Origin: Tubiluchus corallicola | Taxonomy: Eukaryota; Animalia; Priapulida | Length of the DNA stretch: 64,000 bases | NCBI GenBank assembly: GCA_030141605.1 | Contig: JAQGDQ010000803.1 | Span: 1 to 64,000 of the forward strand | Direction of reading: 5' to 3' | Shown: positions 972 to 54,100 of the stretch, piece after piece | Numbering within the stretch: the stretch's first letter is position 1 | Layout: the number at the start of each line of letters is the position of its first letter | Notes under the pieces: generated by a model | Databases searched by the model: none | What the model saw: only the letters and a program-made list of their open reading frames with translations | Told to the model about the DNA's origin: nothing | Program-made: the position numbers and the translations under genes

Positions 972-1067
972 TTTGCTGCCGTAAGCATGTCCAACATGGC
1001 CGGAACTAACTGACCACCGAGTGATAATCCCTGCATCACTAGGCAAATTATAACAACCCACAACTGC
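972..1067 (-). CDS. SLC18B1: SLC18B1 exon (TM10)
   Basis: QLWVVIICLVMQGLSLGGQLVPAMLDMLTAA, 96 nt, phase 2-2. Confidence 0.85.
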
Positions 1068-4000
1068 CTGGAAGGAAATAAGAAGAAAGATTTTTAACAA
1101 ATTTGCATTTATTATTATTAAAGTAACATCAGTAAGGTAATATAATCGCATAAGTTACAACAGGGGTGTGCAGACTGCGGCCCGCGAAGAGGTTTGTCAA
1201 CGTAATGAAAGTGCGGCCCACGCGATCCAGCTGAAGTCCGCGCCAATATCGCAAAGATAGTGCAGGTAGTTTTTTCCTCTAGATCGGATGGCATTAACCC
1301 TTACAAGACCGTTGTCACTTAATGTCACTGTCGGACCTGACGAAATATTTGGTTTTTAATATGAATTTTAATAATTTCTAAAATAGTTTTTTGAGTGTAG
1401 TATGCAGTAGTAATGATGTGCGCAAATCAGATGCAGAAAAATCGTTATAAGGTCCTACTGTACTTGGCTCCTTGATCTAACTGCATGCGGCCCACAGAAA
1501 TTGCGGGAATGTTTAATGTGGCCCGGTTAGTCAGATAATTTGCACACCCCTGAGTTACAAGATCAGATAGCCAATGCAGCTTCAAAAATATTTTTCCATG
1601 CCCATAATGAAGCTGTTATATTCTTCTCTGACATCCTCTTAACAATGTTGTGCCTGATCTTTTTTCATATTTTAACCCATTTTGTAGTATGATAAAATTG
1701 TACATTTCAAGATGTATAATACAATGTGGAAGCATTTCTTGTAATTAAAAACAGGTTAACTTAATTAATCTTAGGCGAGGCCAACTGGTGACGACATCAC
1801 AAACTAACATAATTTTCAACAGCAGAAACATTCCATGAGCGGGTTGCGTGAGTTTGTGAAAGCGAAAATTGAAGTACAGTGTTACTGCAAACCATTCAGT
1901 GTGATATATAAAAATTTGGAAAATTTTATGTTTAAAAACACTTAATTTAGAGTTTACCGCTGTGTTCACTGCGAGCTTTCAAACATTTGCACAACGTCAC
2001 AACTGAACACGTCTGAACAGAAAGGTACAGCACCCATTTTTTGTGCAATGAATTTGGAGATGCAAACGCTAGTACCCATCTAACTAACAAATGGTGAAAT
2101 GTATGTAACAGCAACAAGCTAACAACGCGAACGTGCTTATTGCCATATTGTGGTAATAATTCCTTCACGTAAGTCATTCTTGAAAAAACTAGTATGTTCC
2201 CTTTAAATATTTTATAGGATAGATTGTTTTGAGCTCTAGTTAAAGATTGGGTCCAGTTTTCCTTCAGAGAATGCAATTAATGCGCTGTAGAGATGGCGCT
2301 GTCATACTGTAAAAAAACTTAAATTTCCTCTGCTGGTGCAATGTCTTATTTCAGAAGATTATTTCCGATAACAAACTAGATACTGGTCTTACCACTACCA
2401 TTTAGCGCTACTACTAGGCCTGGCCATTGAGTGCTGGATGCTGCCTTGCACAGTGTAGAACTGTAGAAAACATACTAAAACGCGGTCAACGTGCAGAATC
2501 GGACTTTCAGAATTACGTCCAGATGGTGTGGATAAATGTCCACTTTCATGGTATTAAATCATTGGTATCAAAAAACAGCTTCCAAAGAAACTTAAAATAA
2601 CGATACTTGTATCTATTCCAAACTCATTAAAAGAGTCCAGACCTTGATATGAACTGGACTACATATCAAAAAGGGCGCCGCAAATCGCAACACAATTTCA
2701 CCGAGTACAAAGAATTTCTCACATGGCAAGAATCACACGAAGTTTTAAGAATATTGACTGAAAAACGATTTTCCGTTTAAGGAGTTAGTTCTTAAAATGC
2801 TTACTGTCCATCGATGTTGAAGATCGGCGAAGGACCAATGAAAACAAATGCCAGCATGTTGAATGTTGTGGCTATTGCCATGAGAACTTTGCACCGGCCC
2901 TGGCAAATACAAAAATACAAACAAAATTATTGCAAAATCATTCAAGAAGCAAATTACTGTGCTATAATGATTCTACACCAACACTAATTATAATATCTGC
3001 TACATTAAAACACTTTAACAAAACGCATAACAAACATTTTGCTTAATTGAATCTGGAAAACATCCGAAGCGTTCCTTGTATGTTTTGTCAGAAGATTAAG
3101 ATGCGTTCACATGTAGAGAGTTCTCTTGCAACTGGTTGCACGCGTTGTCAGAAGATTAAGATGCGTTCACATGTAGAGAGCTCTCTTGCAACTGGTTGCA
3201 CGTGTTGTCAGAAGATTAAGATGCGTTCACATGTAGAGAGCTCTCTTGCAACTGGTTGCACGCGTTGTCAGAAGATTAAGATGCGTTCACATGTAGAGAG
3301 CTCTCTTGCAACTGGTTGCACGTGTTGTCAGAAGATTAAGATGCGTTCACATGTAGAGAGCTCTCTTGCAACTGGTTGCACGCGTTGTCAGAAGATTAAG
3401 ATGCGTTCACATGTAGAGAGCTCTCTTGCAACTGGTTGCACGTGTTGTCAGAAGATTAAGATGCGTTCACATGTAGAGAGCTCTCTTGCAACTGGTTGCA
3501 CGCGTTGTCAGAGATTAAGATGCGTTCACATGTAGAGAGCTCTCTTGCAACTCGTTGCACGAGTTGTCAGAAGATTAAGATGCGTTCACATGTAGAGAGC
3601 TCTCTTGCAACTGGTTGCACAAGTTGTCAGAAGATTAAGATGCGTTCACATGTAGAGAGCTCTCTTGCAACTCGTTGCACGAGTTGTCAGAAGATTAAGA
3701 TGCGTTCACATGTAGAGAGCTCTCTTGCACCTGGTTGCACGAGTTGTCAGAAGATTAAGATGCGTTCACATGTAGAGAGCTCTCTTGCACCTGGTTGCAC
3801 GAGTTGTCAGAAGATTAAGATGCGTTCACATGTAGAAAGCTCTCTTGCAACTGGTTGCACGAGTTGTCAGAAGATTAAGATGCGTTCACACGTAGAGAGC
3901 TCTCTTGCAACTGGTTGCACAAGTTGTCAGAAGATTAAGATGCGTTCACATGTAGAGAGCTCTCTTGCAACTCGTTGCACGAGTTGTCAGAAGATTAAGA

Positions 4001-7000
4001 TGCGTTCACATGTAGAGAGCTCTCTTGCAACTGGTTGCACAAGTTGTCAGAAGATTAAGATGCGTTCACATGTAGAGAGCTCTCTTGCAACTGGTTGCAC
4101 GAGTTGTCAGAAGATTAAGATGCGTTCACATGTAGAGAGCTCTCTTGCAACTGGTTGCACGCCCTCTACATTTGAATGCGCCATCAGTCTTATAATGCAT
4201 TTATAAACGTAATATTTACCTTAGTATCGCCCACCCAGCCAAACGCAGGGGCTAACCCAGCATACAACGCTGATGGAACCAAGAAAATAAACCCAATTGT
4301 AGTAAAGGACAATCCAAACTGCAAAAATTGAAATTCAGTGTAAAAATGATTTTGTAAAGAAAACAAAATGTCATTTCACTAGGTGAAAACAAAAATCAAA
4401 ACGGCATAATTTTGATTTTTGAAAGAATACGTTCAAGACGTATTTGAAAAATTAAAACTTTTACAGTTAAAAAAACCACATAACTTTATTAAAATGTTTA
4501 CATTAAAAAGTTAAAATCATGGCAAATGTTTCGACAGGCTGTTGTTGTCATCATCAGCGGTAAATTTACAAACATACAACCAATTTATATATGCAGAGCC
4601 TATTATGCACTAATTAAGTAATTAACAGAAATCAAACAGGAAATGAATAAGCACACCAGTAAAGAAATTGATACAGTAACTTATGCACTAATTATGTATT
4701 TACAAAAGCCAAATAGGTAATGATTAAACAGACCTGAAGAAAAGAAATTGATATAGTAACAAATAGCTAAGTGTTGGAAAATAAAGTTTATGGAATTGAA
4801 TAGTTTTGTACATTAATAGGAAGGCTTATTACAAGTACAGTTTTTAACTAAAAATGTTTTTAAACGCCTTAAATTGACTTAAAAGATGGTTTGGAATGCA
4901 AGTCGGATGGTCAAATGGTGTGCCCGTTCACATAAATATTTTATTTATTTATTTATTAAATATATCCACAATGATCATTACAGCATTGTACATAAAAGTA
5001 TTTAATAACATATTTATTATTATGTGTACAAGATGCCAAGCCGCAAATGACCCGTGGGGTACTCAAGAAGTAATTACTTGTTTAGAGCACCCCAAATGAA
5101 TGTGGACTGAGTGTAATAGAAAAGAGCAGTAAAGGAGTAGAAAGAAAGGTTAATAGAAAATAGAAAGAAGAAGAAAGGTGTGATGGTATCTGTATGAAGT
5201 AACATGAACTATAGAAATGTAAAAATTGACATAACCAGCAACACAATGGATTACGACAGGGACAGCAGTGTAATTAATCAAATTGATTTATTCTGTATAA
5301 TTAGAAAATATTTCACTTTTAAAATTTCTTTTGAAGTTTGTGTACGAACACTAAGTATTATGATACCTAAGTGGGAATTTTTTACAAAAACAGATAGAGA
5401 TTTAAAATTAATTCGCTTTAAAGAATATGAATTATAACTAGTTTCATATAATTAATTAATTAAGTTATAGTCGGGTGGTAAAATTGAGCAGTTATAAATT
5501 GCATAGATTTTAGGTCGATGATTACCTACAATAACAAAACCAGATTAGCAGCATTAGCCCAATTCAAGAACTTATCAAGAACTCATTCTCTGATGAGTTT
5601 CAATTTGAAACTAACCACAGAATAGCTAGAAAACTGTAGAAATGTGAAGAAACATAGTCCTTTACTTGACTTTTTCATGCTGCAAATTTACGAAAGCGCA
5701 AATTTAGAAAATATTGTACGATTACCGCATTTTACGAAAACCACAATTGAAAGCTAAAGGCAAAAAGTGAACTGTCAATAAATGGGAAATTTTCTAGGCA
5801 TCGTAACGAAACCTGTAATAATTATTCCAGGTATTGTGTCTTGTTTCTCTTGGAAGGCTCGTAGAGAAAACCAGAAAAACTAGTTTATTAAGCGAGAATT
5901 CTACAACAGAAAAGTATGAAGGAACGCGAAATGATTACACTAAACGTGAAAATCTGGAAAACGTTTAAGTGTATCTGAAAATACAAGTATATAAGAGAAT
6001 GTGTAAGTGGCGTCAGCGTGAATAAGCGTGCATCTCTCTCAGTGGCCTGCTTTGCCTTATATAGCATGCCCGAGAAGCTTCCGGAAGTTTTGTTCCAGAA
6101 CATTCTACACGGTAAGATGATTATTTTAACGGAACATTCTACAATGTTCTATGCAATTCTAATAGACGCCAGCGACCTCCACAACACCAGGAAAAGTTAG
6201 GAAAGTGATGCACGGTTAGCTAAACTGCACACACAGACAGTAAATTAACTAAAATTAAAAATAATTGATACCATGGCAAGATAGAGAGCTAATGTCGCCT
6301 CGAGAAAACCCAGTGACAGAGCTCCTCCTACGACATTGGAAGTCGCAATCAAAACCGACGGGATCAGCAACATACTTATGAAATTCTGGGAGCCGCTTGA
6401 TTGAGCGTCTACAAAACACGGACAAGATCAATGACATTTTTGTGAAATTTTGGAAAACGTGGCTCGACTGGACATTTATAAAACACAGGATTAGTGACAT
6501 CTCCGTGAAATTTCTCCACTGAGCGCTTACAGAACATATTGATTATGACAAAAAGTATTAACAGAAAAATTTAAAAGTTGAATTAGCAACAGTACAATTT
6601 AAAGTAAGCAATTTAAGTACAAATTAACCATGAAAAGTACACGTGAGAAATTTGCACAGGTGTGTGCAATACAGGTACAGGTACTGTACACACGTTTAAA
6701 CTATAGAGTCCCACAAAAAGTATCAAAAAGTATATGCATTAATGGCAAAATCACATGTCTTAAACTGCCTGCATCTGCCTGATTATAAATGTAACTTTTA
6801 TTGCTTGTAAATTACAAGTACAGTTAAAATTGCATTAATTTCAAATGTATTTATTAGATGATAGTACAATTTGCTCCGTCTAGCTTAAGGTCAGATATTG
6901 TAGTTTTGCTAATCACAATTTGGCAGTAAGAACTTCTGTTACAAAAAAAAGCATATAAAGCATCACTCTTACCTAACCTATTAGGTAAACACACATAGTT

Positions 7001-10000
7001 GAAGAACGCACCGACGAACAGGAAAAAACCCATAACAGCGAACGGTAACACAAACCCACCAACCTGCAAAACACACGAGTAGCACAGAATGCTAACAAAA
7101 CCTGTAAGACACAAACTACTAAATCATAGCCACTACGGCAGCAGCAAGTACCGCACATCTGCGCATATTTCATGCCAGGAGGACACATTTTTTGCATCTG
7201 TTTGATATAGTTTATGTTTGCTATCCAAACTACAATTTTTCTTTTTCTACATTTTTTCCTCATTCTTTATAAACCAAATTTAACTTTTAACTTTGTGAAA
7301 ATATAGCAACTTAAAAACACAAAAATATGATACGAGATGTTGATGTGATTTGTTTTCGTTTACAGACAGGCTGAAAACTTCTTAGCTGCAAAATCGCGCG
7401 AAGAAAAGCGTAGACAAGAAGTACAAAGAAACAGAAAACGAAGAATTCGGAAATGTTACGGATGCAGAATCGAATACATGTAAAAAAGAACAGGAAAAAA
7501 GACACAGGAAAGCAGTAACAGGAAGAAAGAAACAACCCTAACCCTAACATTTTGAACAAACCGCGATTCTTTTACACATACATGTAACGCCATCATGTGT
7601 AAATAGTGTTGTCAATATATACTAGTCACGTACTGCCAATTATTAACTGATCTAAAATATCTTCTGTTTGATTACTTTAATTGTTTATGGTACTTAAATA
7701 GAATGTGACTGACTTGAATATTTTTATTTGATTACATGACTTTCTTTCCTAGCCAACATTGTGAGTTTTTTCTGTGACTTTTCCCCTGTGACTTCATTGT
7801 GAGTTTTTTCTGTGACTTTTCCCCCGTGACTTCATTGCGAGTTTTTTCTGTGACTTTTCCCCTGTGACTTCATTGTGAGTTTTTTCTGTGACTTTTCCCC
7901 TGTGACTTCATTGCGAGTTTTTTTCTGTGACTTTTCCCCTGTGACTTCATTGAGTTTTTTCTGTGAGTTTTCCCCTGTGACTTCATTGAGTTTTTTCTGT
8001 GAGTTTTCCCCTGTGACTTCATTGAGTTTTTTCTGTGAGTTTTCCCCTGTGACTTCATTGTGTTTTTTCTGTGAGTTTTCCCCTGTGACTTCAATGTGTT
8101 TTTTCTGTGACTTCATTGTGAGTTTTTTCTGTGACTTTTCTCCCCATGACTTCATTGTGAGTTTTTTCTGTGACTTTTCCCCTGTGACTTCATTGTGTTT
8201 TTTCTGTGACTTTTTCCCTGTGACTTCATTGAGTTTTTTCTGTGAGTTTTCCCCTGTGACTTCATTGTGTTTTTTCTGTGAGTTTTCCCCTGTGACTTCA
8301 TTGTGTTTTTTCTATGACTTCATTGTGAGTTTTTTCTGTGACTTTTCCCCCCATGACTTCATTGTGAGTTTTTTCTGTGACTTTTCCCCTGTGACTTCAT
8401 TGTGAGTTTTTTCTGTGACTTTTCCCCTGTGACTTCATTGTGAGTATTTTCTGTGACTTTTCCCCCCATGACTTCATTGTGAGTTTTTTCTGTGACTTTT
8501 CCCCCCACGACTTCATTGTGAGTTTTTTCTGTGACTTCATTACCTTGTCCATATAAACAATGTGTGTGCTTGCAAACCAAAGCCGTCCATAAATCGGCAT
8601 AGTTAAAACTACGTTATGATGGTTCAATGTAGAATGAACCAAAAATTTGCTCAATACAAACACTAAATATATTGGAGTTTTATATTCTAGCATCAAATTG
8701 TCAAGAAAATGTTCAAAAAATACTAAAAATCTAATCCCATACCCATTTCTCTGGGTAGAAACTAATAATGCAATTGTAAAAAAACTTGTATTTTCAATCT
8801 CCGACAGTAGCTCATGGCAGCAGTCATTTTGCTTTGAGTTTTTTCTGTTGCCAAACCCAAATCTTCATCAGGAAGAGCCATCCACTGGATTTAAACAGAA
8901 CTTCAATGTGTTTGCGATTGCCAAGTGTTTTGTAGAAACGGGACAAAAAACAATGGCTAACTTTAATAGTGATTTTCTCAAGGTTATGTTTTTCAGTGCA
9001 CGGCCTGCACCTCAGCTTCAATGTGGATTATCTCAGCTTAGAAATAACATAGAGCGATGAGTTTGGTATCAAAATAATTCTCATGAAATGGAGATTCCGA
9101 ATATGTGAATAACTAGAGAAGCTTGATTACCGACTTATAGATGTTTTTGTTATGCAGGCACACATATATCGCACGCCTCAGATGGGCAATGTAATAAAGT
9201 ACGATCAAACAGTCTGAAATATACAACCCAATCACCACATTAAATTAAGAGCAACGGTAACTGCCACCTCCCGGAGACAACCCGCAAGCAGAAACGGAAA
9301 AATGTTGCAGTCATCAAACCAAATTGACAACTTACCGATTCCGCTAGGCAACATACAATAGTTGACCACAGCAGCAATGAGGAGGCAGACTCCAACAACT
9401 GCAAATGGTACAGTGAAACCCCCTAACTGAAAGTAGGGAAAAGAAAATAGTGAAAGACAGAAAACAGGCAACTACGACAAGTTATTTCAGCTAGAAACCG
9501 GTGTCAGTAAGAACGTTTTTTAAAAGCGTAACACTGATGTCTATTAGTTAGAGCAGAATTCAGGAGTAAGATCTTATTAACGGTTTTCGTGGATTATTTT
9601 CAAGTTAGAAAACAGAAGCGAGAAGCATGCAAATAAAAAACTGCAATTTTTTACCTGATATAATGCTCCGCCAATTGGAGGACCGCACATCATTCCAACT
9701 CCAAAAAATGTCTCTAATATGCCCTGCAAAGTTGGAATAACGCATTAGTATGCGGTTAGAATTCATCGCTGAAAAAAGGAGAGTGATAACAGGTGTACAT
9801 TTATGGTTACATTAGCTGCTGGGCGTGTCCGTAGTTGGAAAAATCAAAACAAAAATGAAAATAAAAATGGAAGAATTTTGGTGTCAAATTGCTGTACCAC
9901 GTGTTTCATTATGATTAGCTAGAACCTTGCCTACTTCATTCTTCTTCTTCTCAAGCAAGATCCTGCTAGTAAATCACTCTACGCACAGACTAAAGCATAA

Positions 10001-13000
10001 TTAAGTAAAGTCCATGTAAAACAACTGAAGTCACTAAACTGACGAGGCAGACGGCTTTGCTTTACCCACATGTCATATGACGACTGTATTGTGATGCATT
10101 GCTGTCGTACTCTTAACCTTTGACCTGCAGCAACTGAGTGTGTGCACAACAAAACTGTGAAGAGGCTAATCGGGTTGGCTCTCTCACCTTGGAAATACAG
10201 TTTTAGAGAAGTTCAGGCACATGTTTATATCAGCCGATAACCAATTTATATGCTGCAAAATGATTACTTTGCAAGAAAACCAAGTGCATGCGAAGAGCTC
10301 ATTTTGACAATGAGCCATTAGGTGTATTCCGCAAGGTGATTTAATGACACTTAATGGCGACTATCCGAAAATTTCTAAGTCCAACACAGTCAATATTTTG
10401 GTAAGTTGGACTGTTTGACCGATGCAAAAGTCTTGGCTCTTTGAAACCCTGGCTTCAGAGGGAGAGCAGCACCTAAAACCCCTAGCTGATCAAGAATCAG
10501 GGATTTAACTGAATTTACGAACCGAAGTCAAAATTTATGAAACATGAAACAGCGAAATGAAACCGAAGCGAAACATTTTTGCAAAACCAACTACTAAAAT
10601 AAGTAAAATATTTTGTTTTTTGATTGTTCATTTTTCTGTGTTTTTTTGGATCAAAAAATTCTAATACAAAAAGCACAAAGAAGTTTTATAGTGTAGAACT
10701 TCAAGTTTGATGGAGTGGCTTCCCTTAGAAAATGTGGTATAATGTTTCTGGATTTAAGTATCCTTAACAATTAATGTTTAACGAACATAATGCTTCCTTA
10801 AAAATAAACAAATTTTATTTTGTAGATACTTTGTTGCCTATATTTCATAACTTCTAAAGCTAAACATGATTTTGCTCAAGGGCCTGGAGATTCTAAAACT
10901 TCACAGTGGTCAGCACTGAAGATACGCCACATTGCCGGTAAAAGCATGTCACGAACTGTTATGTAAACGAAATTTTCGCTTTATTGAACTAATTCAGCCA
11001 AGATTTTTCAGTGGTTTTTGGCATCTAGGAGAATCAAGGTAAATTGGGTAAATACTAGTAAAACGTCGGAAAAAATGAAATTTAATAAATTTGGCCGAAA
11101 TCGAAACTTAACCGAAAAAATTTTGTTTCAGTAACATCCCTGTCAAGAATGTTAACAGAAGTTTCTGAACTAGGAAGAAAAGTTCACACAACGCTGGTAT
11201 AAAACCAAGAGCGACTAGGTACCAACTACTTACGAATATAGTAGACAACTGGGCAGGAAACTCATTTGCAATGATGGCGTACGATGCCGTCGTAAACGCG
11301 TGCATTCCAGCAGCTTGGACAGACCTCACAATGAAGCACCAGGCGACGAAAGGCGTCCCATCAGGTACCAGATTTAACAACCTACAAAGTGCAAAAACCC
11401 TGGCAAAAATTGTCAAAATAAAAAAATTCTTTTTTGCATATTAATAATAAATTAATAAACGTGTACAATATATATATATATATATATAATAATCTTTATT
11501 TGCCATTAAAACATTGATAATCACTGATAAACACTTTACAGAGATAATCAATCAGTGTTAGTTAATAAAAACTTACACTGCTGAAGGCAAATACGTCAGT
11601 GCATCTAAACTACTGTGCAGTAATGACGAATAAAATCAAACATATTTACAACCATACACAAAAAAAAACAAACTAGGATTTAATTAATATGGCCGTGGAT
11701 ATATGAATTCTGAATTAGTGTGTATGTTGTCGTACTGGTGTGATGGTATTTCATATCTGGTTAATATTAGTGATTTTAATTTTGTTTTAAATGCTGATAG
11801 GGACTTGATTTGTTTAACCTGTAATGGTAGAGAATTCCAAAGTAAAATTGCTTGTTTGATTACAGAGTTCGTTCCATAGTGGGTATTTGTCCTAATTTGT
11901 TTTAGATTGCTTGTTCTGGAATTAACGATAGGATTTGGAACAAAGGTAAATCTGTTATTCTGTACGTTGTACAATGTACGTTCAAGTTCAAATTTACTTC
12001 GGCAGAATACATAATCATTACATCATCATAACAATAAATACTGAAAGTAAACAATAACTCTGGAAAAGACATGCATACATGTATTAATTTTTGATATATT
12101 ATATATATTATATTTTGATATATTAATTAATACTTAGTTTGCAGGCTTACCCAAATAAAAACGAACTACATCCACCCACAAAAATTCCTGTTATAAAGAC
12201 AAATTTGCAGCCCAGAAAAGCCATCTGCAACAAGCAAGTCAAGAGTTATAAAGTCACCACAAGATGTCAGGTAACTCGAGGGTCAAATCAAGATAAAATC
12301 TTTCATTTTAACAACTTCAGTGCAACTCTACTCTAACAGGGTAATTTTTCATATCCTGCCTAACTTTGAAGTATGGTAAAAAGTATGTCTTTTAACACCT
12401 ATAATAATGTAGAAACATTTTTGATAATTAAATAATAGGTTAAAAACTTAATGAAGCGTGGGAGAGCCCAACTATTAATGACATCAAACTGCAAATAATT
12501 TTCAACAGCAAAAACATTCCATGAGTGTGAGTTAAAGTTAAAGGAAGAGAGGATGATTTTTCATATACTACCCCATTTCCAAGTCCAATAAAAAGTATAC
12601 ATCTTAACACAGTTAATACTACAAAAGCATTTCTGATAGTAAAATAATAGATGAAAAACTTAATTAACGGCAGGCGATCCCAACTAGTGATGACATCACA
12701 AACTAACATAATTTTCAATAGCAAAAATATTCTGCGAGCGTGTTGCACGCGTTTGCGAAAGCAAAAATTGAAGTACAGTGCTACTGTACAACATTCAGCA
12801 TGGTAGAGAAGAAACTCGGCAGATTATACGATTAAAATTCAAATTTCAAGTTTACCACTTTGTTCATTGATGACATCAACAACTACTGATGAGACATCAC
12901 AACTGAACAGTATTTTCAACAGCACAAACATTTCACGAGTGTGACAAGTTTACTGCTGCGTTCTCGCACGAGCTCTATCGAACGCGTGACTACATCACAA

Positions 13001-14594
13001 TTGAACATGTCCGAACTGAGAGGTGCCGCATCTGTGTTTTGTGCAGTGCATAGTACCCGCCTAACTAAAGAATGACGAAATGCGTGTAATAGTGAAGAAC
13101 TGCTCGCACAAATTCAAAATTATATTTCCGTGGTAATAATTCTTTCACATAAACAATTCTTGAAAAAATATCAAGTTCCCTTTCAATATTTTCTAGATTA
13201 GATTGTTTATAGCTATAGTTGAAAACTGAGTCTAGTTTTCCTCTAAATTCCAATTCTTAAGTTCCTCACTGTTAAATTACACAACACTTGCACACACATA
13301 TAGTTACAATGTGAAAACCCAACGGTCAAAATAAAGAACTATGCACTCACATATTTTCCTAAAAATGGTGATAAAATAAAACCAACTAATTGAAAGCTGC
13401 CTATAATAAAGCCCACTTCTGTTTTTGTTGCTCCTTTTGTAATGCCCTATTAAAAAAGAAATTAAACTTATATTAGTTCATGCTACTCGGTGTAAATCAT
13501 TAGCGCATTGAGATCTAACAGATTTAGAACAAAAACAAAACAGAATCCTCCAAAACAACAGTCCATTTACAGCCCGAGTTTTTGAGGAGATTCTGGCTGT
13601 AACTATTCACTTACAGTAATATAGCACATTACAATCCAAAGAGTCTTCCCAATTCCCATTCTCCTAAACTTAGTCAGTTAAACATCTTTATGAAGAAGTT
13701 CTAAAGGTAATTGCTAAGACACTAGATCAAGTAGAATACAGGTGAGCTTTATTTTATAATGTAAAATGTAAGCATACATTTTAACACAGGTAATACTGCA
13801 AAAGCGTTTCTGACAGTTAAATAATAGATTAAAAACTTAATTAACGGCAGGCGAGCCCAACTATTGATGACATCACAAACTAACATAATTTTCAACAGCA
13901 AAAATATTCCACGAGCGTGTTGAACGTGTTTGCGAAAGAGAAAATTGAAGTACAGTGCCACTGTAAGATATTCAGTGTGTTGTACTGAAACTAGGCAAAT
14001 TTTAAAATAATAATTTAAGTTTCAAATTTACTGTTGTGCTCACACATGAGCTGTCGAACATGTGCAGTTTGTCACAAACAAGCACATTTGAACTAAGAGC
14101 TACAGCACCTGTTTTTGTGCAATGCGTTTCCAAAATGTAGGCACTAGTGCCCGTCTAACTAGCGAATGGGGTAATGCACGTAACAGCGAACAGCTAGTGG
14201 TGCGAACGCGAAACTGTGTTTGAGTGGTAATAATTCTTTCATGTAAGTCATTTAAAATAAAACAGTATGTTTCCTTTCATTATTTTAATGAGTAGATTGT
14301 TTTGACCTACAATTTAAGATTGGATGCGGTTTTGCTTTATATTACTCGAAGACGTACCTCATCGGGAAAGAATGGAGCAATAAGAGAGTAACTAGCACCA
14401 CTGAAGAAGTCTGCTACGGCAATGGCAAGAATGGTAAGCTTCGCTCTTGTCGAGAGGTCAAAAAAGCTTCCCTGGGGCGGTTCGTACACGACGCTAGGTT
14501 CGCCGAGCGACTCCGTGCGCCGTCGCTCGCTTTCCGTAAAACTTCCGCTAGGATGGTGGAATCGTTCCAAAGATGTCATTCGTTGGAAAGACAT
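972..14594 (-). CDS. SLC18B1: MFS-type transporter SLC18B1-like, multi-exon, 3' end beyond left edge. Coding exons: 14594-14358, 13446-13351, 12224-12151, 11381-11234, 9723-9655, [9426-9336 or 7063-6973], 6408-6272, 4318-4220, 2899-2805, 1067-972
   Basis: All introns GT..AG with compatible phases. The spliced product reads ...SYSLIAPFFPDE|GITKGATKTEVGFIIGSFQLVGFILSPFLGKY|MAFLGCKFVFITGIF...|...IIANEFPAQLSTIF|GILETFFGVGMMCGPPIGGALYQ|LGGFTVPF...|...LGFLEATLALYL|FGLSFTTIGFIFL...|...FIGPSPIFNI|QLWVVIICLVMQGLSLG..., collinear with SLC18B1 motifs. Confidence 0.88.
1161..1552 (+). mobile_element. hAT MITE family A, copy 1
   Basis: TIR CAGGGGTGTGCA, TSD AGTTACAA. Confidence 0.85.
2805..2899 (-). CDS. 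SLC18B1: SLC18B1 exon (TM9)
   Basis: GRCKVLMAIATTFNMLAFVFIGPSPIFNIDG, 95 nt, CAG/GTAAG. Confidence 0.85.
3085..4160. repeat. 60-bp tandem array, about 18 copies
   Basis: Unit TGTCAGAAGATTAAGATGCGTTCACATGTAGAGAGCTCTCTTGCAACTGGTTGCACNNGT. Confidence 0.95.
4220..4318 (-). CDS. SLC18B1: SLC18B1 exon (TM8)
   Basis: FGLSFTTIGFIFLVPSALYAGLAPAFGWVGDTK, 99 nt. Confidence 0.85.
4480..4760 (-). mobile_element. Penelope-like terminal remnant
   Basis: Minus strand CTGATGATGACA...TGTCGAAAC; similar to 33395-33590. Confidence 0.5.
5835..6190 (+). repeat. Dispersed repeat; second copy at 59565-59930
   Basis: Near-identical blocks CTAGTTTATTAAGCGAGAATTCTACAAC...ATTCTAATAGACGCCAGCGA. Confidence 0.75.
6272..6408 (-). 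CDS. SLC18B1: SLC18B1 exon (central loop and TM7)
   Basis: TAG|DAQSSGSQNFISMLLIPSVLIATSNVVGGALSLGFLEATLALYLAM|GTATC, 137 nt, phase 1-0. Confidence 0.8.
6973..7063 (-). CDS. SLC18B1: SLC18B1 alternative exon B (TM6 paralogue)
   Basis: CAG|VGGFVLPFAVMGFFLFVGAFFNYVCLPNRL+1nt|GTAAG, 91 nt, phase 0-1. Confidence 0.85.
7757..8540. repeat. Compound minisatellite of about 36-38 bp (TGTGACTT submotif)
   Basis: CATTGTGAGTTTTTTCTGTGACTTTTCCCCTGTGACTT variants. Confidence 0.9.
8555..9170. mobile_element. Dispersed TIR-type element; fragments at 42850-42915 and tandemly duplicated at 44205-44598 (minus)
   Basis: Imperfect inverted ends (TGTGTGCTTGCAAACCAAA / TTTTGTTATGCAGGCACACA) and shared internal sequence. 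Confidence 0.5.
9336..9426 (-). CDS. SLC18B1: SLC18B1 alternative exon A (TM6)
   Basis: CAG|LGGFTVPFAVVGVCLLIAAVVNYCMLPSGI+1nt|GTAAG, 91 nt, phase 0-1. Confidence 0.85.
9655..9723 (-). CDS. SLC18B1: SLC18B1 exon (TM5, GxxxGPxIGG motif C)
   Basis: GILETFFGVGMMCGPPIGGALYQ, 69 nt, CAG/GTAAA flanks. Confidence 0.88.
9950..10160 (+). repeat. Dispersed repeat; second copy at 56345-56570
   Basis: Shared ATCCTGCTAGTAAATCACTCTACGCACAGACT...TTAACCTTTGACCT. Confidence 0.7.
10498..11142 (+). mobile_element. hAT MITE family B, copy 1
   Basis: CAGGGAT...ATCCCTG termini, TSD TCAAGAAT. Confidence 0.8.
11234..11381 (-). CDS. SLC18B1: SLC18B1 exon (TM4)
   Basis: LLNLVPDGTPFVAWCFIVRSVQAAGMHAFTTASYAIIANEFPAQLSTIF|GTAAGT, 148 nt. 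Confidence 0.88.
11480..11974 (-). mobile_element. 3' end of a LINE (L2/CR1 group)
   Basis: RTNTHYGTNSVIKQAILLWNSLPLQVKQIKSLSAFKTKLKSLI, then 3' UTR ending AATAAAG(ATT)/(TA)n. Confidence 0.75.
12151..12224 (-). CDS. SLC18B1: SLC18B1 exon (TM3)
   Basis: CAG|MAFLGCKFVFITGIFVGGCSSFLFG|GTAAG, 74 nt. Confidence 0.85.
13351..13446 (-). CDS. SLC18B1: SLC18B1 exon (TM2)
   Basis: AG|GITKGATKTEVGFIIGSFQLVGFILSPFLGKY|GTGAGT, 96 nt, phase 0-0. Confidence 0.85.
14358..14594 (-). CDS. SLC18B1: SLC18B1 first coding exon (N-terminal tail and TM1)
   Basis: ATG at 14594; acceptor near 14638; ends APFFPDE|GTACGT. Confidence 0.85.
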
Positions 14595-17680: not shown

Positions 17681-18813
17681 GAACACATTTAAGAATACGT
17701 TTTAAAAACAATAGAACAGCTCAAGTTTATCTGCACACATTACTTAGGAACACATTTTAAGAATACGTTTAAAAACAATAGAACAGCTTAAGTTTGTCTG
17801 CACACATTACTTAGGAACACATTTTAAGAATACGTTTAAAAACAATAGAACAGCTTAAGTTTATCTGCACACATTACTTAGGAACACATTTTAAGAATAC
17901 GTTTAAAAACAATAGAACAGCTTAAGTTTATCTGCACACATTACTTAGGAACACATTTTAAGAATACGTTTAAAAACAATAGAACAGCTTAAGTTTATCT
18001 GCACACATTACTTAGGAACACATTTTAAGAATACGTTTAAAAACAATAGAACAGCTTAAGTTTATTTGCACACATTACTTAGGAACACATTTTAAGAATA
18101 CGTTTAAAAACAATAGAACAGCTTAAGTTTATTTGCACACATTACTTAGGAACACATTTTAAGAATACGTTTAAAAACAATAGAACAGCTTAAGTTTATC
18201 TGCACACATTACTTAGGAACACATTTTAAGAATACGTTTAAAAACAATAGAACAGCTTAAGTTTATCTGCACACATTACTTAGGAACACATTTTAAGAAT
18301 ACGTTTAAAAACAATAGAACAGCTTAAGTTTATTTGCACACATTACTTAGGAACACATTTTAAGAATACGTTTAAAAACAATAGAACAGCTTAAGTTTAT
18401 CTGCACACATTACTTAGGAACACATTTTAAGAATACGTTTAAAAACAATAGAACAGCTTAAGTTTATCTGCACACATTACTTAGGAACACATTTTAAGAA
18501 TACGTTTAAAAACAATAGAACAGCTTAAGTTTATTTGCACACATTACTGGAACTTTTAAGAATACGTTTAAAAACAATAGAACAGCTTAAGTTTGTCTGC
18601 ACACATTACTTAGGAACACATTTTAAGAATACGTTTAAAAACAATAGAACAGCTTAAGTTTATCTGCACACATTACTTAGGAACACATTTTAAGAATACG
18701 TTTAAAAACAATAGAACAGCTTACGTTTATCTGCACACATTACTTAGGAACACATTTTAAGAATACGTTTAAAAACAATAGAACAGCTTAAGTTTATCTG
18801 CACACATTACTTA
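17681..18813. repeat. 67-bp tandem array, about 17 copies
   Basis: GAACACATTTTAAGAATACGTTTAAAAACAATAGAACAGCTTAAGTTTATCTGCACACATTACTTAG. Confidence 0.95.
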
Positions 18814-19931
18814 GGGTTAATCAAAGAGGAAACCAAAAAGTAGAAAATTAAAAGAGATTAGAAATCAGGACTAAAGGGACTGGATGTTGCAAAGCTAGTC
18901 TCAAAATCCATAATATGCAATTTCTTGCACCAGGTTACCTATCATTTCAATACGCCTATATGCATGACGGCTACTAATATGCATGATGGCAAACATATTA
19001 GTTGTATGATTTGTATGGCTTCTGAAAATTTGCTACAACTGAGTTATGCCCAAACAATATTTGTAATCTTTATTGTTTAAGCCACACTACTAACACGCTA
19101 CCACTAATACTACACTGTACTCAAAAATTTATATTTCAGATAAACTTGCAAGCAAAAAAAGGTAAATATGCTAGATATAGAAACTGAAAGCCAGGAAGTA
19201 GACAGCAAAAATGCAAGTGTCTATAAAGACAGAGGCAAAGCACATAATGTCTAGGAATACTTTCAAATAAATGAGCAAATCTCAGCAAAATGCAAAACAG
19301 TAATGGAAACAGAAATGTATCTCTGTACTAAAGTCAAACTTCTTTATAGTACCTACTTTGGGACAGTTGGTGTTAAGCGAGTTTGGCATGATAACGAGTT
19401 ACATTAATATATTTGTCTATACAAATTCAGACATTTTGTTTTGCCAAAAATGAGGGAGCCAGGCGAAGTTGGCATTACAAGAAAGGAGGAAGTATGACCC
19501 CCGTACATCGAGTTAGCTACACTTAACTGATCGCTAAATATCTACGGTGCACTAGGATTTTCTTGCACGGTGATCAGCAAAATTTTTAAAGGATACCATA
19601 CGTTTCATTTTCAAATTCTTTTAAATTCCACATGCGTGCGTAAGGATTTGTTACCGTACTCTATAGTCTATAGTTGCAGTTGTTGCAAATTCCAGCGTAT
19701 GCTACCGTTTTAGACAAACAACAGAAATGCTTTAGTACAACATCCAGCACGCCTGAAGATTTCCAATGCATGAAAAAATATCTTCCTTCAACTGACATGT
19801 AGAATTACAAGCGGTATTGTCTGCGACTCATCTGTAAGGATCTCATTCCTACCCAGCTTCCTTAGCATACAAGTATACAGCAACAAGATTTGCTAGCACC
19901 TTATATAATGGAAGACATTCAATGATATGAA

Positions 19932-22475: not shown

Positions 22476-23337
<862 letters not shown>

Positions 23338-51190: not shown

Positions 51191-54100
51191 TCATAAACAA
51201 CACTATCAGAGTAAATTGTTTCCCGAATGGGTGCCCACAAGGAAGAGTTTTGCACCGGTGCCATCAAATCAGATGGAGTCTTATCTTCCAGAAGAAAGTG
51301 AATCGCCATGGATACAGTTCAGATCAGGAGAGGAGGATGCTCCTCAGAGGCCGTTTCGCATGCCCGTATTTCAGGTGTGTTCAGTGGCAACTCGTAGCTA
51401 CATTTAGTGGTGTTGTGCTTCAGAAAATTTGTAGCTATGGTTTTAATACCGTATAAAATGAAACAAACACATGTAATTTTAATGTTGTAATTTGTAATTG
51501 TAATTTTAAACAAACAAACGTACGAAAGTTTATACATAAACTGATAAAATGCTAAACAAAAAACATTTTTTCGCTTACTAATAGCCTAAATTGTCACAGT
51601 TCAAGCTTGATCGTTCATTCACGTGACAACTGACAACAAACTGTGTGAGCGACATTACTTTTTCTATCTGGGCACCGAGTTGCAGTGAGCGTAGTGTACT
51701 GGGCTATGAAGCAAACAGCACTGCTGTCACATGCTCTGGACCGTACAAGTATAACGAAAGAAAAAAGACTTATCATATTGAATATTATCGATAATATCAA
51801 GTGAAAATAGGCGATGCTGCAGTTCCACAGTACCTAGACACGAGCACCACTCGGGGTGTTCAGATTTAACAGCAATTTTGTAGCACCTCAAGTACCTGTT
51901 AGTGAATACTAACACTAAGTACTAATAGTGAATTGTGCAGAGAAGTTGTAGCAGTATAATGTTGGTTACGTGATGGTAAATTCTCAGTTGTTTCTAAATT
52001 TTATAATTCTCCTTTCTTCCTACTTTTCATTTCACATTGTACTTCTCTATAAAGATTCATTCTTTATATCGACTGTCTGTGAGTGAACTTAGCTAAAGGA
52101 GCAGGGGTGGAACTAGGACAAATAATTTTTTTTGCAGTGAAAATTGCAGTTCGCATGTAATCATTTTCAATATGAATTAGAATTAGGTAAAAAAATGTTT
52201 GGTAGCTTCAGTGTATTATTTTCTTAAAACTTGTGTGTGATAAATTTCTGTAAATAATTTAGTTAGAGGCACATTAATAACATTTGGTTAACTAAGAGTT
52301 AATTTTCTCATTATTGCTCTGTCCGCTACGCCTTCCTACACACATGCTAATTATAGGCCTGCATGCAGTATAAAAGGGGTTAAAATTGGCTTAACTATTA
52401 TTTAACCACTTCGGATACCCCCCAGAAAATTTTTGCGCCCCCCCTGCTTGCCACATCTAGTTCCGGCCCTGTAAAGGAGGATGTGGTAACGTCCCCATCA
52501 CTTCCCCATTTTCAGGCATTCTCTGCCGCACTCCGAAGATAGATACTGGTACTCCACTGCCGATACCGGTGCAGGGGGCAGCACCCCTGCCACGAGTTGC
52601 TCCGGCACCTACTGTCTTCGCATTCATTTTTAACAGTCATCTTTTTCTCAGATGCCTTATTTTCATATGTCCTTTACCTTGCTAAAACTGTCATTGTTAG
52701 TATTTGTTTTGTAGCATGCGCACCAGGGGAATAGCCAGGTTCTAAAGTTGGGGGGGAGCAAGAGCTTAAAGAAGTGCTATGACATAGGTGATACATGCCA
52801 AATAATTTTAACGCATTGATTATACAAGTTACTTTTGTGTTTAAGGAAGTACATAATTGTTATTTTGTATAATAAAAACTTGCAAAACAGACTCTGAAAC
52901 TTGCCTTTGCAATAAATAATTGACTGTAGGCCTACTCATACACAATCGTGCTACACAATGGTGCATACACAATGGTGCTACACAATGGTGCAACAACAAT
53001 GGTGCTACACAATGGTGCAACAACAATGGTGCATACACAATGGTGCAACAACAATATATTATAATAACTAGATTTTGGAGCAATCTGATCCTTAGTTCAA
53101 TCATTCAACGTTGACAAATGAGTTTCGTAAATGCGCGCTCCTCTTTTCTTTCTGTTTCTAGGCGGAGGTAGATGTTGTTTCTGGAAGTGTTATGATGTAC
53201 GCTGGTGGTCCCATTTGGGGCGCTGCCTGGTGTCCGATTCCGTACGACGTCTCTCGTTGCCAGTACATTGCCGTGTCTTGTCATCGAAGCTACGACGAAA
53301 AGCACAGCCTGATGCAGGCCTCCGATGGCAAGGGTCTGATACAGATATGGGGCACCGGTCAGATCGAAAAGGATCTGTAAGTTGTTTACTTTTTTTATTT
53401 GGCAAATAAAATTTGGTCGTTTTGTCACAGCAGAGAAAATAGACTACGGCCAAATTACGTTGAAAACACCGGTTCTCGTCTGATCACCGAAGTTAAGCAA
53501 CGTTGAGCCTGGTTAGTACTTGGATGGGTGACCGCCTAGGAATACCAGGTGCTGTAGGCTTGCGGGATGCCCACACTGTATCTTGACACTAGGCGGAGGA
53601 GCTGCACAAGCAGCCAATGGCTAGAGGGCGGAGGAGGTCAAGTGACTCAACGGCCATGTGTAGAGGAGTAAACCTTCCAAATTAGGAGTGGAGTCCCGAA
53701 GGCGGACCAGTGCAGCATGGTCACTGACTCCGGCAGCTCCTGCAGCCAACCTGATGCCAAACGTATCGCTCTGTTTTCCTTTGGACCACACCAGGGAGGA
53801 AGAGAAGGGGGTTCCTGCTGTCTGGGCAACTCAGGATCTCCATACACCTTGCCCAGGCGTGCGCCCTGGCGATGTTCAAGGATTGCACTGCTCAGCCTCA
53901 GTTGATGCTGCAGCTCCATCAATGTGATCAATAACTGACTCTCTTGGCGCACATTCCATTGTCTTCCGAGACAGAAGGATGCCACCAGAGAAAATAGATG
54001 CAATTGAACTTTTTCATACTTGTCAACTGCATTATTGTCATTTGCTTTTATGTTCAGTGATGCACCTTCTAAAGCGGTGGTTCCCAACCTGAGGCACGAG

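What the first reader, a model, noticed from the sequence alone, without database searches (positions are those of the whole stretch)
6973..9426. Mutually exclusive duplicated exons encoding TM6 of SLC18B1
Seen: two homologous 91-nt exons (LGGFTVPFAVVGVCLLIAAVVNYCMLPSGI vs VGGFVLPFAVMGFFLFVGAFFNYVCLPNRL) have the same phase (0-1), CAG/GTAAG sites and no stops. Their DNA has diverged a lot, yet GGF-PFAV-G-NY-LP is kept. Including both or neither shifts the frame, so exactly one must be used. Inference: an old, selected pair of mutually exclusive exons giving two transporter isoforms. I do not recall this being described for SLC18B1 (the vesicular polyamine transporter family).
Basis: partly seen in the sequence, partly recalled or inferred. 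Interest (0 to 1): 0.7.

Follow-up and report, generated by a model that had tools for sequence, protein, structure and literature searches.

The report
Swappable helix exon in SLC18B1-like transporter
An invertebrate gene for a relative of the vesicular polyamine transporter SLC18B1 carries two old, intact copies of the exon for its sixth membrane helix, which are likely spliced in one at a time and would give two equally long transporters predicted to differ on the helix's outer surface rather than in the substrate pocket; it is a new case of a well-known kind of splicing, and no RNA covering it was available.

Summary
Observation confirmed. Two 91-nt, phase 0-1 exons (A 9426-9336, B 7063-6973, minus strand) lie between exons 5 and 7 of an SLC18B1-like gene. 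Either alone gives an open 380-codon frame; both or neither give an early stop. They share 51/91 nt and 14/30 residues, with synonymous sites saturated. Both keep the five near-invariant family residues, and the residues they share lie on one helix face that matches family conservation, so both were under protein-level selection. A second DNA data set shows B and its splice sites unchanged among many flanking differences (weak support). No RNA run covered the gene, so splicing of either copy is not shown. The exon encodes TM6, which holds no known substrate residue of human VPAT; B gains five phenylalanines off the shared face. One intronic RNA duplex beat 150 of 150 shuffles but lacks covariation support. 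No database isoform pair swaps this exon; Mercenaria isoforms swap the next (TM7) exon. I found no paper on it. The scan has no earlier SLC18B1 note, but 24 notes in this genome fit 'mutually exclusive exon'. New member of a known kind; interest 0.33.

The parts
14358..14594 (-). First coding exon found (TM1); the ATG at 14594 is a predicted start
   Evidence: Profile hit 30.8 bits; open frame into exon 2
13351..13446 (-). Exon 2 (TM2), 96 nt
12151..12224 (-). Exon 3 (TM3), 74 nt
11234..11381 (-). Exon 4 (TM4), 148 nt, phase 2-0; same length and phase as the matching human SLC18B1 exon
   Evidence: PDB 9d7u hit E 1.4e-6; human exon row in PMC5740500 supplement
9655..9723 (-). Exon 5 (TM5, carries the equivalent of human E171), 69 nt, phase 0-0
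9336..9426 (-). Exon 6A: TM6 copy A, 91 nt, phase 0-1, strong pyrimidine tract (18 of 20)
6973..7063 (-). Exon 6B: TM6 copy B, 91 nt, phase 0-1, eight aromatic residues against three in A
   Evidence: no difference listed in run X1
6944..7251 (-). Block with no listed difference between the window and run X1: exon B, both splice sites and about 190 nt of upstream intron
   Evidence: P 3e-4 if differences are independent, 0.35 if clustered
9455..9482 (-). Predicted RNA arm upstream of A's pyrimidine tract; pairs with 6780-6753 (-27.1 kcal/mol)
   Evidence: 0 of 150 shuffles as good; one X1 allele weakens it. Prediction only
6753..6780 (-). Predicted docking-like RNA arm downstream of B; also pairs weakly (-20.9, 36 of 150 shuffles as good) with the intron just after A
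   Evidence: Prediction only
7135..7166 (-). Predicted RNA arm upstream of B; could pair with 9268-9253 (-24.9, 8 of 150) or 6682-6655 (-25.5, 5 of 150)
   Evidence: Not significant after multiple testing
7762..8537 (.). 36-nt tandem array (21.5 copies) inside the intron between A and B
6272..6408 (-). Exon 7 (loop 6-7 and TM7, E at the place of human D255), 137 nt, phase 1-0, single copy
4220..4318 (-). Exon 8 (TM8), 99 nt
2805..2899 (-). Exon 9 (TM9), 95 nt
972..1067 (-). Exon 10 (TM10), 96 nt; no later exon was found, so the gene likely continues beyond the window start

Best explanation
Exons 6A and 6B are two old, intact tandem copies of the TM6 exon of an SLC18B1-like MFS transporter gene, and they are likely spliced one at a time into two equally long isoforms. 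Shown: either copy alone gives an open frame, while both or neither give a premature stop. Shown: both copies keep the family's invariant residues and one shared helix face. Inferred: mRNAs with both or neither are removed by nonsense-mediated decay, possibly helped by competing intronic RNA pairings (predicted only, low confidence). Inferred: the isoforms keep the same substrate pocket, because no known VPAT substrate residue lies in TM6. They would differ on the other faces of this peripheral helix (five Phe gained in B; SGI vs NRL at the cytosolic end), which would tune membrane fit, partner binding, sorting or turnover rate, probably by tissue or stage.
For: Frame tests. pS 0.79 vs pN 0.33 and second-position identity 24 of 30. 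Both keep G193, P197, F198, G202 and P217 (human numbering), each 91-100% conserved in 61 non-redundant relatives. Identity between A and B correlates with family conservation (r 0.55, P 0.0016) and forms one helical stripe (P 0.011-0.027 over three windows) pointing within 17 degrees of the family's conserved face. A substitution-only neutral-decay simulation keeps frame, splice sites and these five residues in 0.3% of runs at 0.4 changes per site and 0.02% at 0.6. Median identity to the family is the same for A and B (0.36). Run X1 lists 25 differences over 855 nt around B, none in B or its splice signals (P 0.014 if independent). TM6 is H201-221 in the Priapulus homologue model; VPAT substrate residues lie in TM1, 2, 4, 5, 7 and 11 (PMC12049414). 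TM6 is peripheral and binds basigin in MCT1 and TLR3 in UNC93B1, and GLUT1/GLUT4 kinetic differences map to it (PMC8154325 passages). Frame-incompatible exons make up 60% of human MXE clusters (PMC5740500 passage).
Against: No junction read or RNA contig for either exon. B scores lower than A on the family TM6 profile (25.6 vs 38.3 bits; held-out relatives: median 40.7, 10th percentile 31.7). The X1 result loses significance if differences are treated as clusters (P 0.35 for the block, 0.51 for the exon). No database isoform pair swaps this exon, so no second species supports it. Only 1 of 9 intronic duplex tests stands out, the region downstream of B was extended to 330 nt after seeing the first scan, and the X1 allele at 9469 breaks a central G-C pair (-27.9 to -23.1). 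The simulation ignores indels and does not show that both copies are still in use today.
Confidence: 0.75

Rival explanations
1. One copy (more likely B) was selected for a long time but is now silent or only rarely spliced, so the gene makes essentially one protein.
For: B scores below the 10th percentile of relatives on the TM6 profile. A has the stronger pyrimidine tract (18 vs 13 of 20). No RNA evidence for B.
Against: B has an open frame, canonical AG/GTAAGA sites and all invariant residues. Its pyrimidine tract (13 of 20) is like those of constitutive exons 2-10 (12-19). No difference is listed in B or its splice signals in run X1.
Confidence: 0.14
2. The second copy acts mainly as a regulatory (poison) exon: including both A and B stops translation inside B and lowers transporter levels through nonsense-mediated decay.
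For: Joint inclusion gives a stop at codon 266, inside B. Joined reads occur in 22% of frame-incompatible human clusters (PMC5740500 passage).
Against: In a joined transcript B is read out of frame, which would not preserve its in-frame protein motif and helix-face pattern.
Confidence: 0.06
3. A and B are not alternatives in one gene: they come from merged haplotypes, an assembly error, or a stray piece of a paralogue.
For: SLC18B1-like genes are multi-copy in many invertebrates, Priapulus included. No single X1 contig spans both exons, and no whole genome is held.
Against: A and B are only 56% identical with unrelated flanks, far beyond allelic difference. X1 holds both, each in the same flanks as the window, and one contig links A to exon 5. 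No other paralogue exon lies in the 64 kb.
Confidence: 0.03

Closest known systems
Tandem-duplicated, mutually exclusive exons of human transporters: SLC39A14 (two 170-nt exons) and SLC12A1 (three exons) (PMC8373072 and PMC5740500 supplements)
   Same: Homologous same-length exons, not a multiple of three for SLC39A14, swapping a hydrophobic stretch of a solute carrier.
   Different: Different folds and genes; those are validated by cDNA or RNA-seq, this one is not. SLC18B1 is not in the curated human list (0 hits).
Mercenaria mercenaria SLC18B1-like isoforms X1/X2 (XP_045182089.2, XP_045182090.2) and Priapulus caudatus model XP_014668059.1
   Same: Same family. The Mercenaria isoforms are both 505 aa and differ only at residues 230-275, one exon's worth. 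The Priapulus model holds two copies of that exon in tandem.
   Different: They concern the next exon (loop 6-7 and TM7, with the D255 site: E vs D), not TM6. They are database models whose support I could not check. Exon 7 is single in the window.
Human SLC18B1 / VPAT (PDB 9D7U; PMC12049414)
   Same: Family, exon 4 length and phase, and R137, E171, Y51, D296 kept; D255 is E.
   Different: E83 is G and D140 is Q here. The only human MXE candidate listed is for exon 4 and its translation diverges after 17 residues into a low-complexity tail (that the tail is Alu-like is recalled).
Docking/selector and bidirectional RNA pairing in MXE clusters (PMC6071210 abstract; PMC4691838 and ATE1 PMC7797038, search listing only)
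   Same: Predicted intronic arms on both sides of A and B could compete for one partner.
   Different: Those models rest on conservation and mutagenesis; here there is no covariation data and one natural allele weakens the best duplex.

Membership tests
Tandem-duplicated mutually exclusive exons | Adjacent homologous exons of the same length and phase with canonical splice sites | tested here: met
Tandem-duplicated mutually exclusive exons | Each alone gives a full reading frame; joint inclusion or skipping does not | tested here: met
Tandem-duplicated mutually exclusive exons | Both copies under purifying selection | tested here: met
   X1 support is weak
Tandem-duplicated mutually exclusive exons | Both copies seen in mRNA, one at a time | not testable with these tools
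   No RNA holder listed; runs laid were DNA or touched only repeats
Tandem-duplicated mutually exclusive exons | Pair conserved in related species | tested here: inconclusive
   No close relative in the protein sets (best core identity 48%); no TM6-swapping pair found
Docking/selector RNA switch | Competing intronic duplexes stronger than chance | tested here: inconclusive
   1 of 9 tests at 0 of 150 shuffles; controls reached 1 of 40 in 2 of 13 tests
Docking/selector RNA switch | Conserved or covarying pairing across species | not testable with these tools
   No orthologous DNA; one X1 allele breaks a pair
SLC18B1-like MFS transporters | Sequence and exon structure homologous to SLC18B1 | tested here: met
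   tree places it among SLC18B1-like proteins with Priapulus rows (SH-aLRT 98, quick tree of 31 rows, no SLC18A outgroup)
Vesicular polyamine transporter (function) | Membrane charged residues needed for spermine transport (E83, R137, D140, E171, D255) | tested here: not met
   R137 and E171 kept, D255 is E, D140 is Q, E83 is G, and the nearby position where many relatives have E is Q
Vesicular polyamine transporter (function) | Proton-driven polyamine uptake into vesicles | not testable with these tools
   Needs an uptake assay

The most novel reading that the evidence does not exclude
The exon pair is an RNA-structure-controlled switch that replaces the outer, partner-binding face of TM6 while leaving the pocket intact, sending one transporter to different partners or vesicle types. 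SLC18B1-like genes would then have gained such cassettes independently at neighbouring exons (TM6 here, TM7 in a clam and in a Priapulus model, TM1 in a beetle), making the family an unrecognised hotspot for modular splicing.
Probability: 0.17. Interest if true: 0.58.

Novelty: new member of a known kind. Interest (0 to 1): 0.33.

Why it matters
If both exons are used, the pair is a natural helix-swap experiment in the SLC18 fold: same pocket, different TM6 surface. It would test directly what a peripheral MFS helix contributes to sorting, partner binding or turnover. It would also add SLC18B1-like genes to the transporter families with duplicated alternative exons. The class is well known and common in this genome, and TM6 lies away from the substrate site, so the expected effect is tuning rather than a new function.

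Tried and rejected
No whole genome is held. A word search with exon 4 against longer proteins found nothing among 12 candidates. The 30-residue exon peptides hit nothing in PDB and only weak unrelated Pfam models. Sequencing runs: no RNA holder listed (the query was the neighbouring nibrin ORF, not the transporter). X2 covered only repeats and X1 was unspliced DNA; X1 left 6200-6811, including exon 7, uncovered, which proves nothing. Exact inverted repeats: nothing convincing among 179 pairs (25 shown). The first duplex scan timed out. The conserved intron upstream of B has no unusual local fold (z -0.3). Rfam: 0 matches in 6000-12500. A duplicated two-exon unit (TM6+TM7) was rejected: no second exon 7. 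Steric exclusion was rejected: the intron between A and B is 2272 nt. U12-type splice sites were not seen (donors). Dating the duplication by shared rare residues failed: A-B scored 12.5, below the best A-family (15.0) and B-family (14.0) scores among 123 relatives. The careful tree did not finish; the quick tree was used. The supplement held for PMC9741552 was a single 15-kB file with no hit, so its full event tables may not have been seen; bioRxiv supplements were not available.
Full report
The observation. The minus strand carries a multi-exon gene from about 14594 down to 972, of which I traced ten exon positions. Between exon 5 (9723-9655, phase 0-0) and exon 7 (6408-6272, phase 1-0) lie two 91-nt exons, A (9426-9336) and B (7063-6973). 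A alone or B alone gives 380 codons without a stop. Skipping both stops 30 nt into exon 7, and including both stops inside B. Skipping the TM6 exon together with exon 7 stays in frame. A family TM6 profile finds only A (40.0 bits) and B (26.6) among 2805 stop-free stretches of the window, the next best being 6.6, and no other exon is duplicated.

What the gene is. Exon 4 hits human SLC18B1 in PDB 9D7U (E 1.4e-6, the only hit). Of ten relatives looked up, six carry the name 'MFS-type transporter SLC18B1' or 'SLC18B1-like', and so do most named hits. Exon 4 has the length and phase (148 nt, 2-0) of the matching human exon. A quick tree of 31 rows puts the protein in a group (SH-aLRT 98) with two Priapulus paralogues, a tardigrade, arthropods and unnamed rows, on a long branch; four requested rows were absent from the alignment because of a length filter. 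The neighbouring nibrin's best named hit is Priapulus (44%). Earlier scan notes call the genome 'likely priapulid'; my data fit that but do not prove it. Against human VPAT, Y51, R137, E171 and D296 are kept and D255 is E, but D140 is Q and E83 is G. Both of these are needed for spermine transport in human VPAT (PMC12049414, section 7 part 1), so the substrate is open.

Which part is swapped. A and B align to human residues 191-220. The paper assigns E171 to TM5 and F251/D255 to TM7 (passages). In an AlphaFold model of the Priapulus homologue (pLDDT 87), the matching stretch is the sixth membrane helix, H201-221, followed by the long loop. None of the VPAT substrate or coupling residues named in the passages I read lies in TM6; the two structure papers mention TM6 once each, only as the end of the N-domain. 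A review calls TM6 peripheral, reports that it binds basigin in MCT1 and TLR3 in UNC93B1, and maps GLUT1/GLUT4 kinetic differences to it (PMC8154325 passages).

Are both copies selected? They share 51 of 91 nt and 14 of 30 residues; pS is 0.79 (saturated) and pN 0.33. Both keep G193, P197, F198, G202 and P217, which are 91-100% conserved in 61 non-redundant relatives of 123. Shared positions track family conservation (r 0.55, P 0.0016). They also form one helical stripe (F198, G202, L205, A209, N212/Y213, L216; P 0.011-0.027 in three windows) pointing the same way as the family's conserved face. Off that stripe B has Phe at five positions where A has V, C or L (eight aromatic residues vs three). 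That the shared face packs on the protein and the others face lipid is an inference. Neutral decay by substitutions keeps frame, splice sites and those five residues in 4.5% of runs at 0.2 changes per site, 0.3% at 0.4 and 0.02% at 0.6. Against this, B scores 25.6 bits on the TM6 profile, below the 10th percentile (31.7) of 122 held-out relatives, while A scores 38.3; median identity to the family is equal (0.36).

A second data set. The run search listed two runs and no RNA holder. X1 is DNA: its contigs run through exon-intron borders. One contig (9320-9977) links A to exon 5 with 6 differences, of which 5 are listed and none falls in an exon. Another (6835-7689) has 22 substitutions (20 listed) and 5 indels, with none listed between 6944 and 7251, which covers B, its splice sites and 190 nt of upstream intron. 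This gap has P 3e-4 if the 25 listed events are independent but 0.35 if they are merged into 6 clusters; for the exon alone P is 0.057 or 0.51. It is weak support, and X1 may not be independent of the assembly's source.

How exclusion might work. The intron between A and B is 2272 nt, too long for steric exclusion, and all sites are ordinary GT-AG. Decay of frameshifted products is sufficient in principle; 377 human MXE clusters (60%) are frame-incompatible (PMC5740500 passage). A scan of 15 region pairs found three duplexes better than 20 of 20 shuffles. On retesting 9 pairs with 150 shuffles, only one held: 9482-9455 (upstream of A's pyrimidine tract) with 6780-6753 (downstream of B), -27.1 kcal/mol, 0 of 150. 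The others reached 8 and 5 of 150, and 2 of 13 control pairs from constitutive introns reached 1 of 40. A two-state reading is possible: the arm after B masks A's acceptor region (B used) or pairs with the intron after A and loops B out (A used; -20.9, 36 of 150, not significant). That resembles the competing-structure model (PMC6071210, abstract). But the region was sized after the first scan, an X1 allele breaks a central pair (-27.9 to -23.1), and no covariation test was possible. I give this switch about one chance in four.

Other species. Among 272 proteins, 625 pairs at 85% identity or more were scanned for block differences, and 1005 pairs at 80% or more were screened at TM6 where the anchoring motif was present. 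One pair was flagged, and it is an exon-skipping misalignment, not a swap. None of 234 proteins with a TM6 hit has two in tandem (375 scanned). Large clusters were listed only in part (15 of up to 116), and no close relative of this gene was found (best core identity 48%), so this is limited evidence that the pair is lineage-specific. The family does show swaps elsewhere. Mercenaria X1/X2 differ only at 230-275, the TM7 exon. A Priapulus model has two TM7 copies (1 of 229). Dendroctonus isoforms differ only at TM1, which may be alternative first exons.

What is known. Five full-text searches (listings and abstract starts only) showed no paper on this event. The curated human list of tandem exon substitutions has SLC12A1 and SLC39A14 but no SLC18 gene (PMC8373072 supplement). 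The human MXE screen lists an SLC18B1 candidate for exon 4, a different exon (PMC5740500 supplement). Such events are enriched in membrane proteins and arise convergently (PMC9741552 passages). The scan holds no SLC18B1 note, but 24 of 33 notes in this genome fit 'mutually exclusive exon'.

Verdict. The feature is real and most likely a functional mutually exclusive pair (0.75), with splicing unproven. It is a new member of a known kind, in a helix away from the pocket. Interest 0.33.

Noticed in passing
P0304 / P0413 (Mercenaria mercenaria XP_045182089.2, XP_045182090.2), residues 230-275: Two 505-aa SLC18B1-like isoforms differ only in the loop 6-7/TM7 exon, with E vs D at the place of the spermine-binding D255 of human VPAT; a candidate substrate-tuning exon swap, arguably more interesting than the one in this window.
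   Followed up: partly
P0033 (Priapulus caudatus XP_014668059.1), residues 240-280 and 300-337: The gene model holds two tandem copies of the TM7 exon, probably an alternative pair annotated as both included.
   Followed up: partly
P0458 vs P0461/P0351 (Dendroctonus ponderosae X2 vs X1), residues 5-37: SLC18B1 isoforms differ only in a homologous TM1 stretch; duplicated alternative first or internal exons.
   Followed up: no
window 26791-24731 (-): Nibrin (NBN/NBS1) encoded as one intronless 686-codon ORF, about 10 kb upstream on the same strand; an unnamed protein is 76% identical over the full length. That nibrin genes are usually multi-exon is recalled.
   Followed up: partly
window 53162-53377 (+) and probably other exons on + between about 29 and 63 kb: Exon of general transcription factor 3C polypeptide 2 (PDB 8CLI chain C, E 1.5e-12).
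   Followed up: partly
window exons 2 and 4 (13446-13351, 11381-11234): This transporter has no acidic residue at human E83/A80 or D140, where most relatives have E or D (Q at D140 in 1 of 123); substrate or proton coupling may differ.
   Followed up: partly
window 9631 and 7175 (-): UGCAUG in intron 5 and GCAUG in the unchanged block upstream of B; that these are Rbfox-type sites is recalled, and short motifs occur by chance.
   Followed up: no
window 7530-7385 (-): A long pyrimidine-rich tract ending in TTTTGCAG about 320 nt upstream of B; could be an unused acceptor or distant branch region. Its 5' part overlaps a dispersed repeat (7476-7687).
   Followed up: no
window 3085-4161, 7762-8537, 17681-18815, 22476-23334: Tandem arrays with 60-, 36-, 67- and 4-nt units; the first two lie in introns of the transporter gene.
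   Followed up: no
P0022 (Biomphalaria glabrata XP_055872055.1): Isoform X2 lacks the TM6 and TM7 stretch together, the in-frame double skip that is also possible in the window gene.
   Followed up: no
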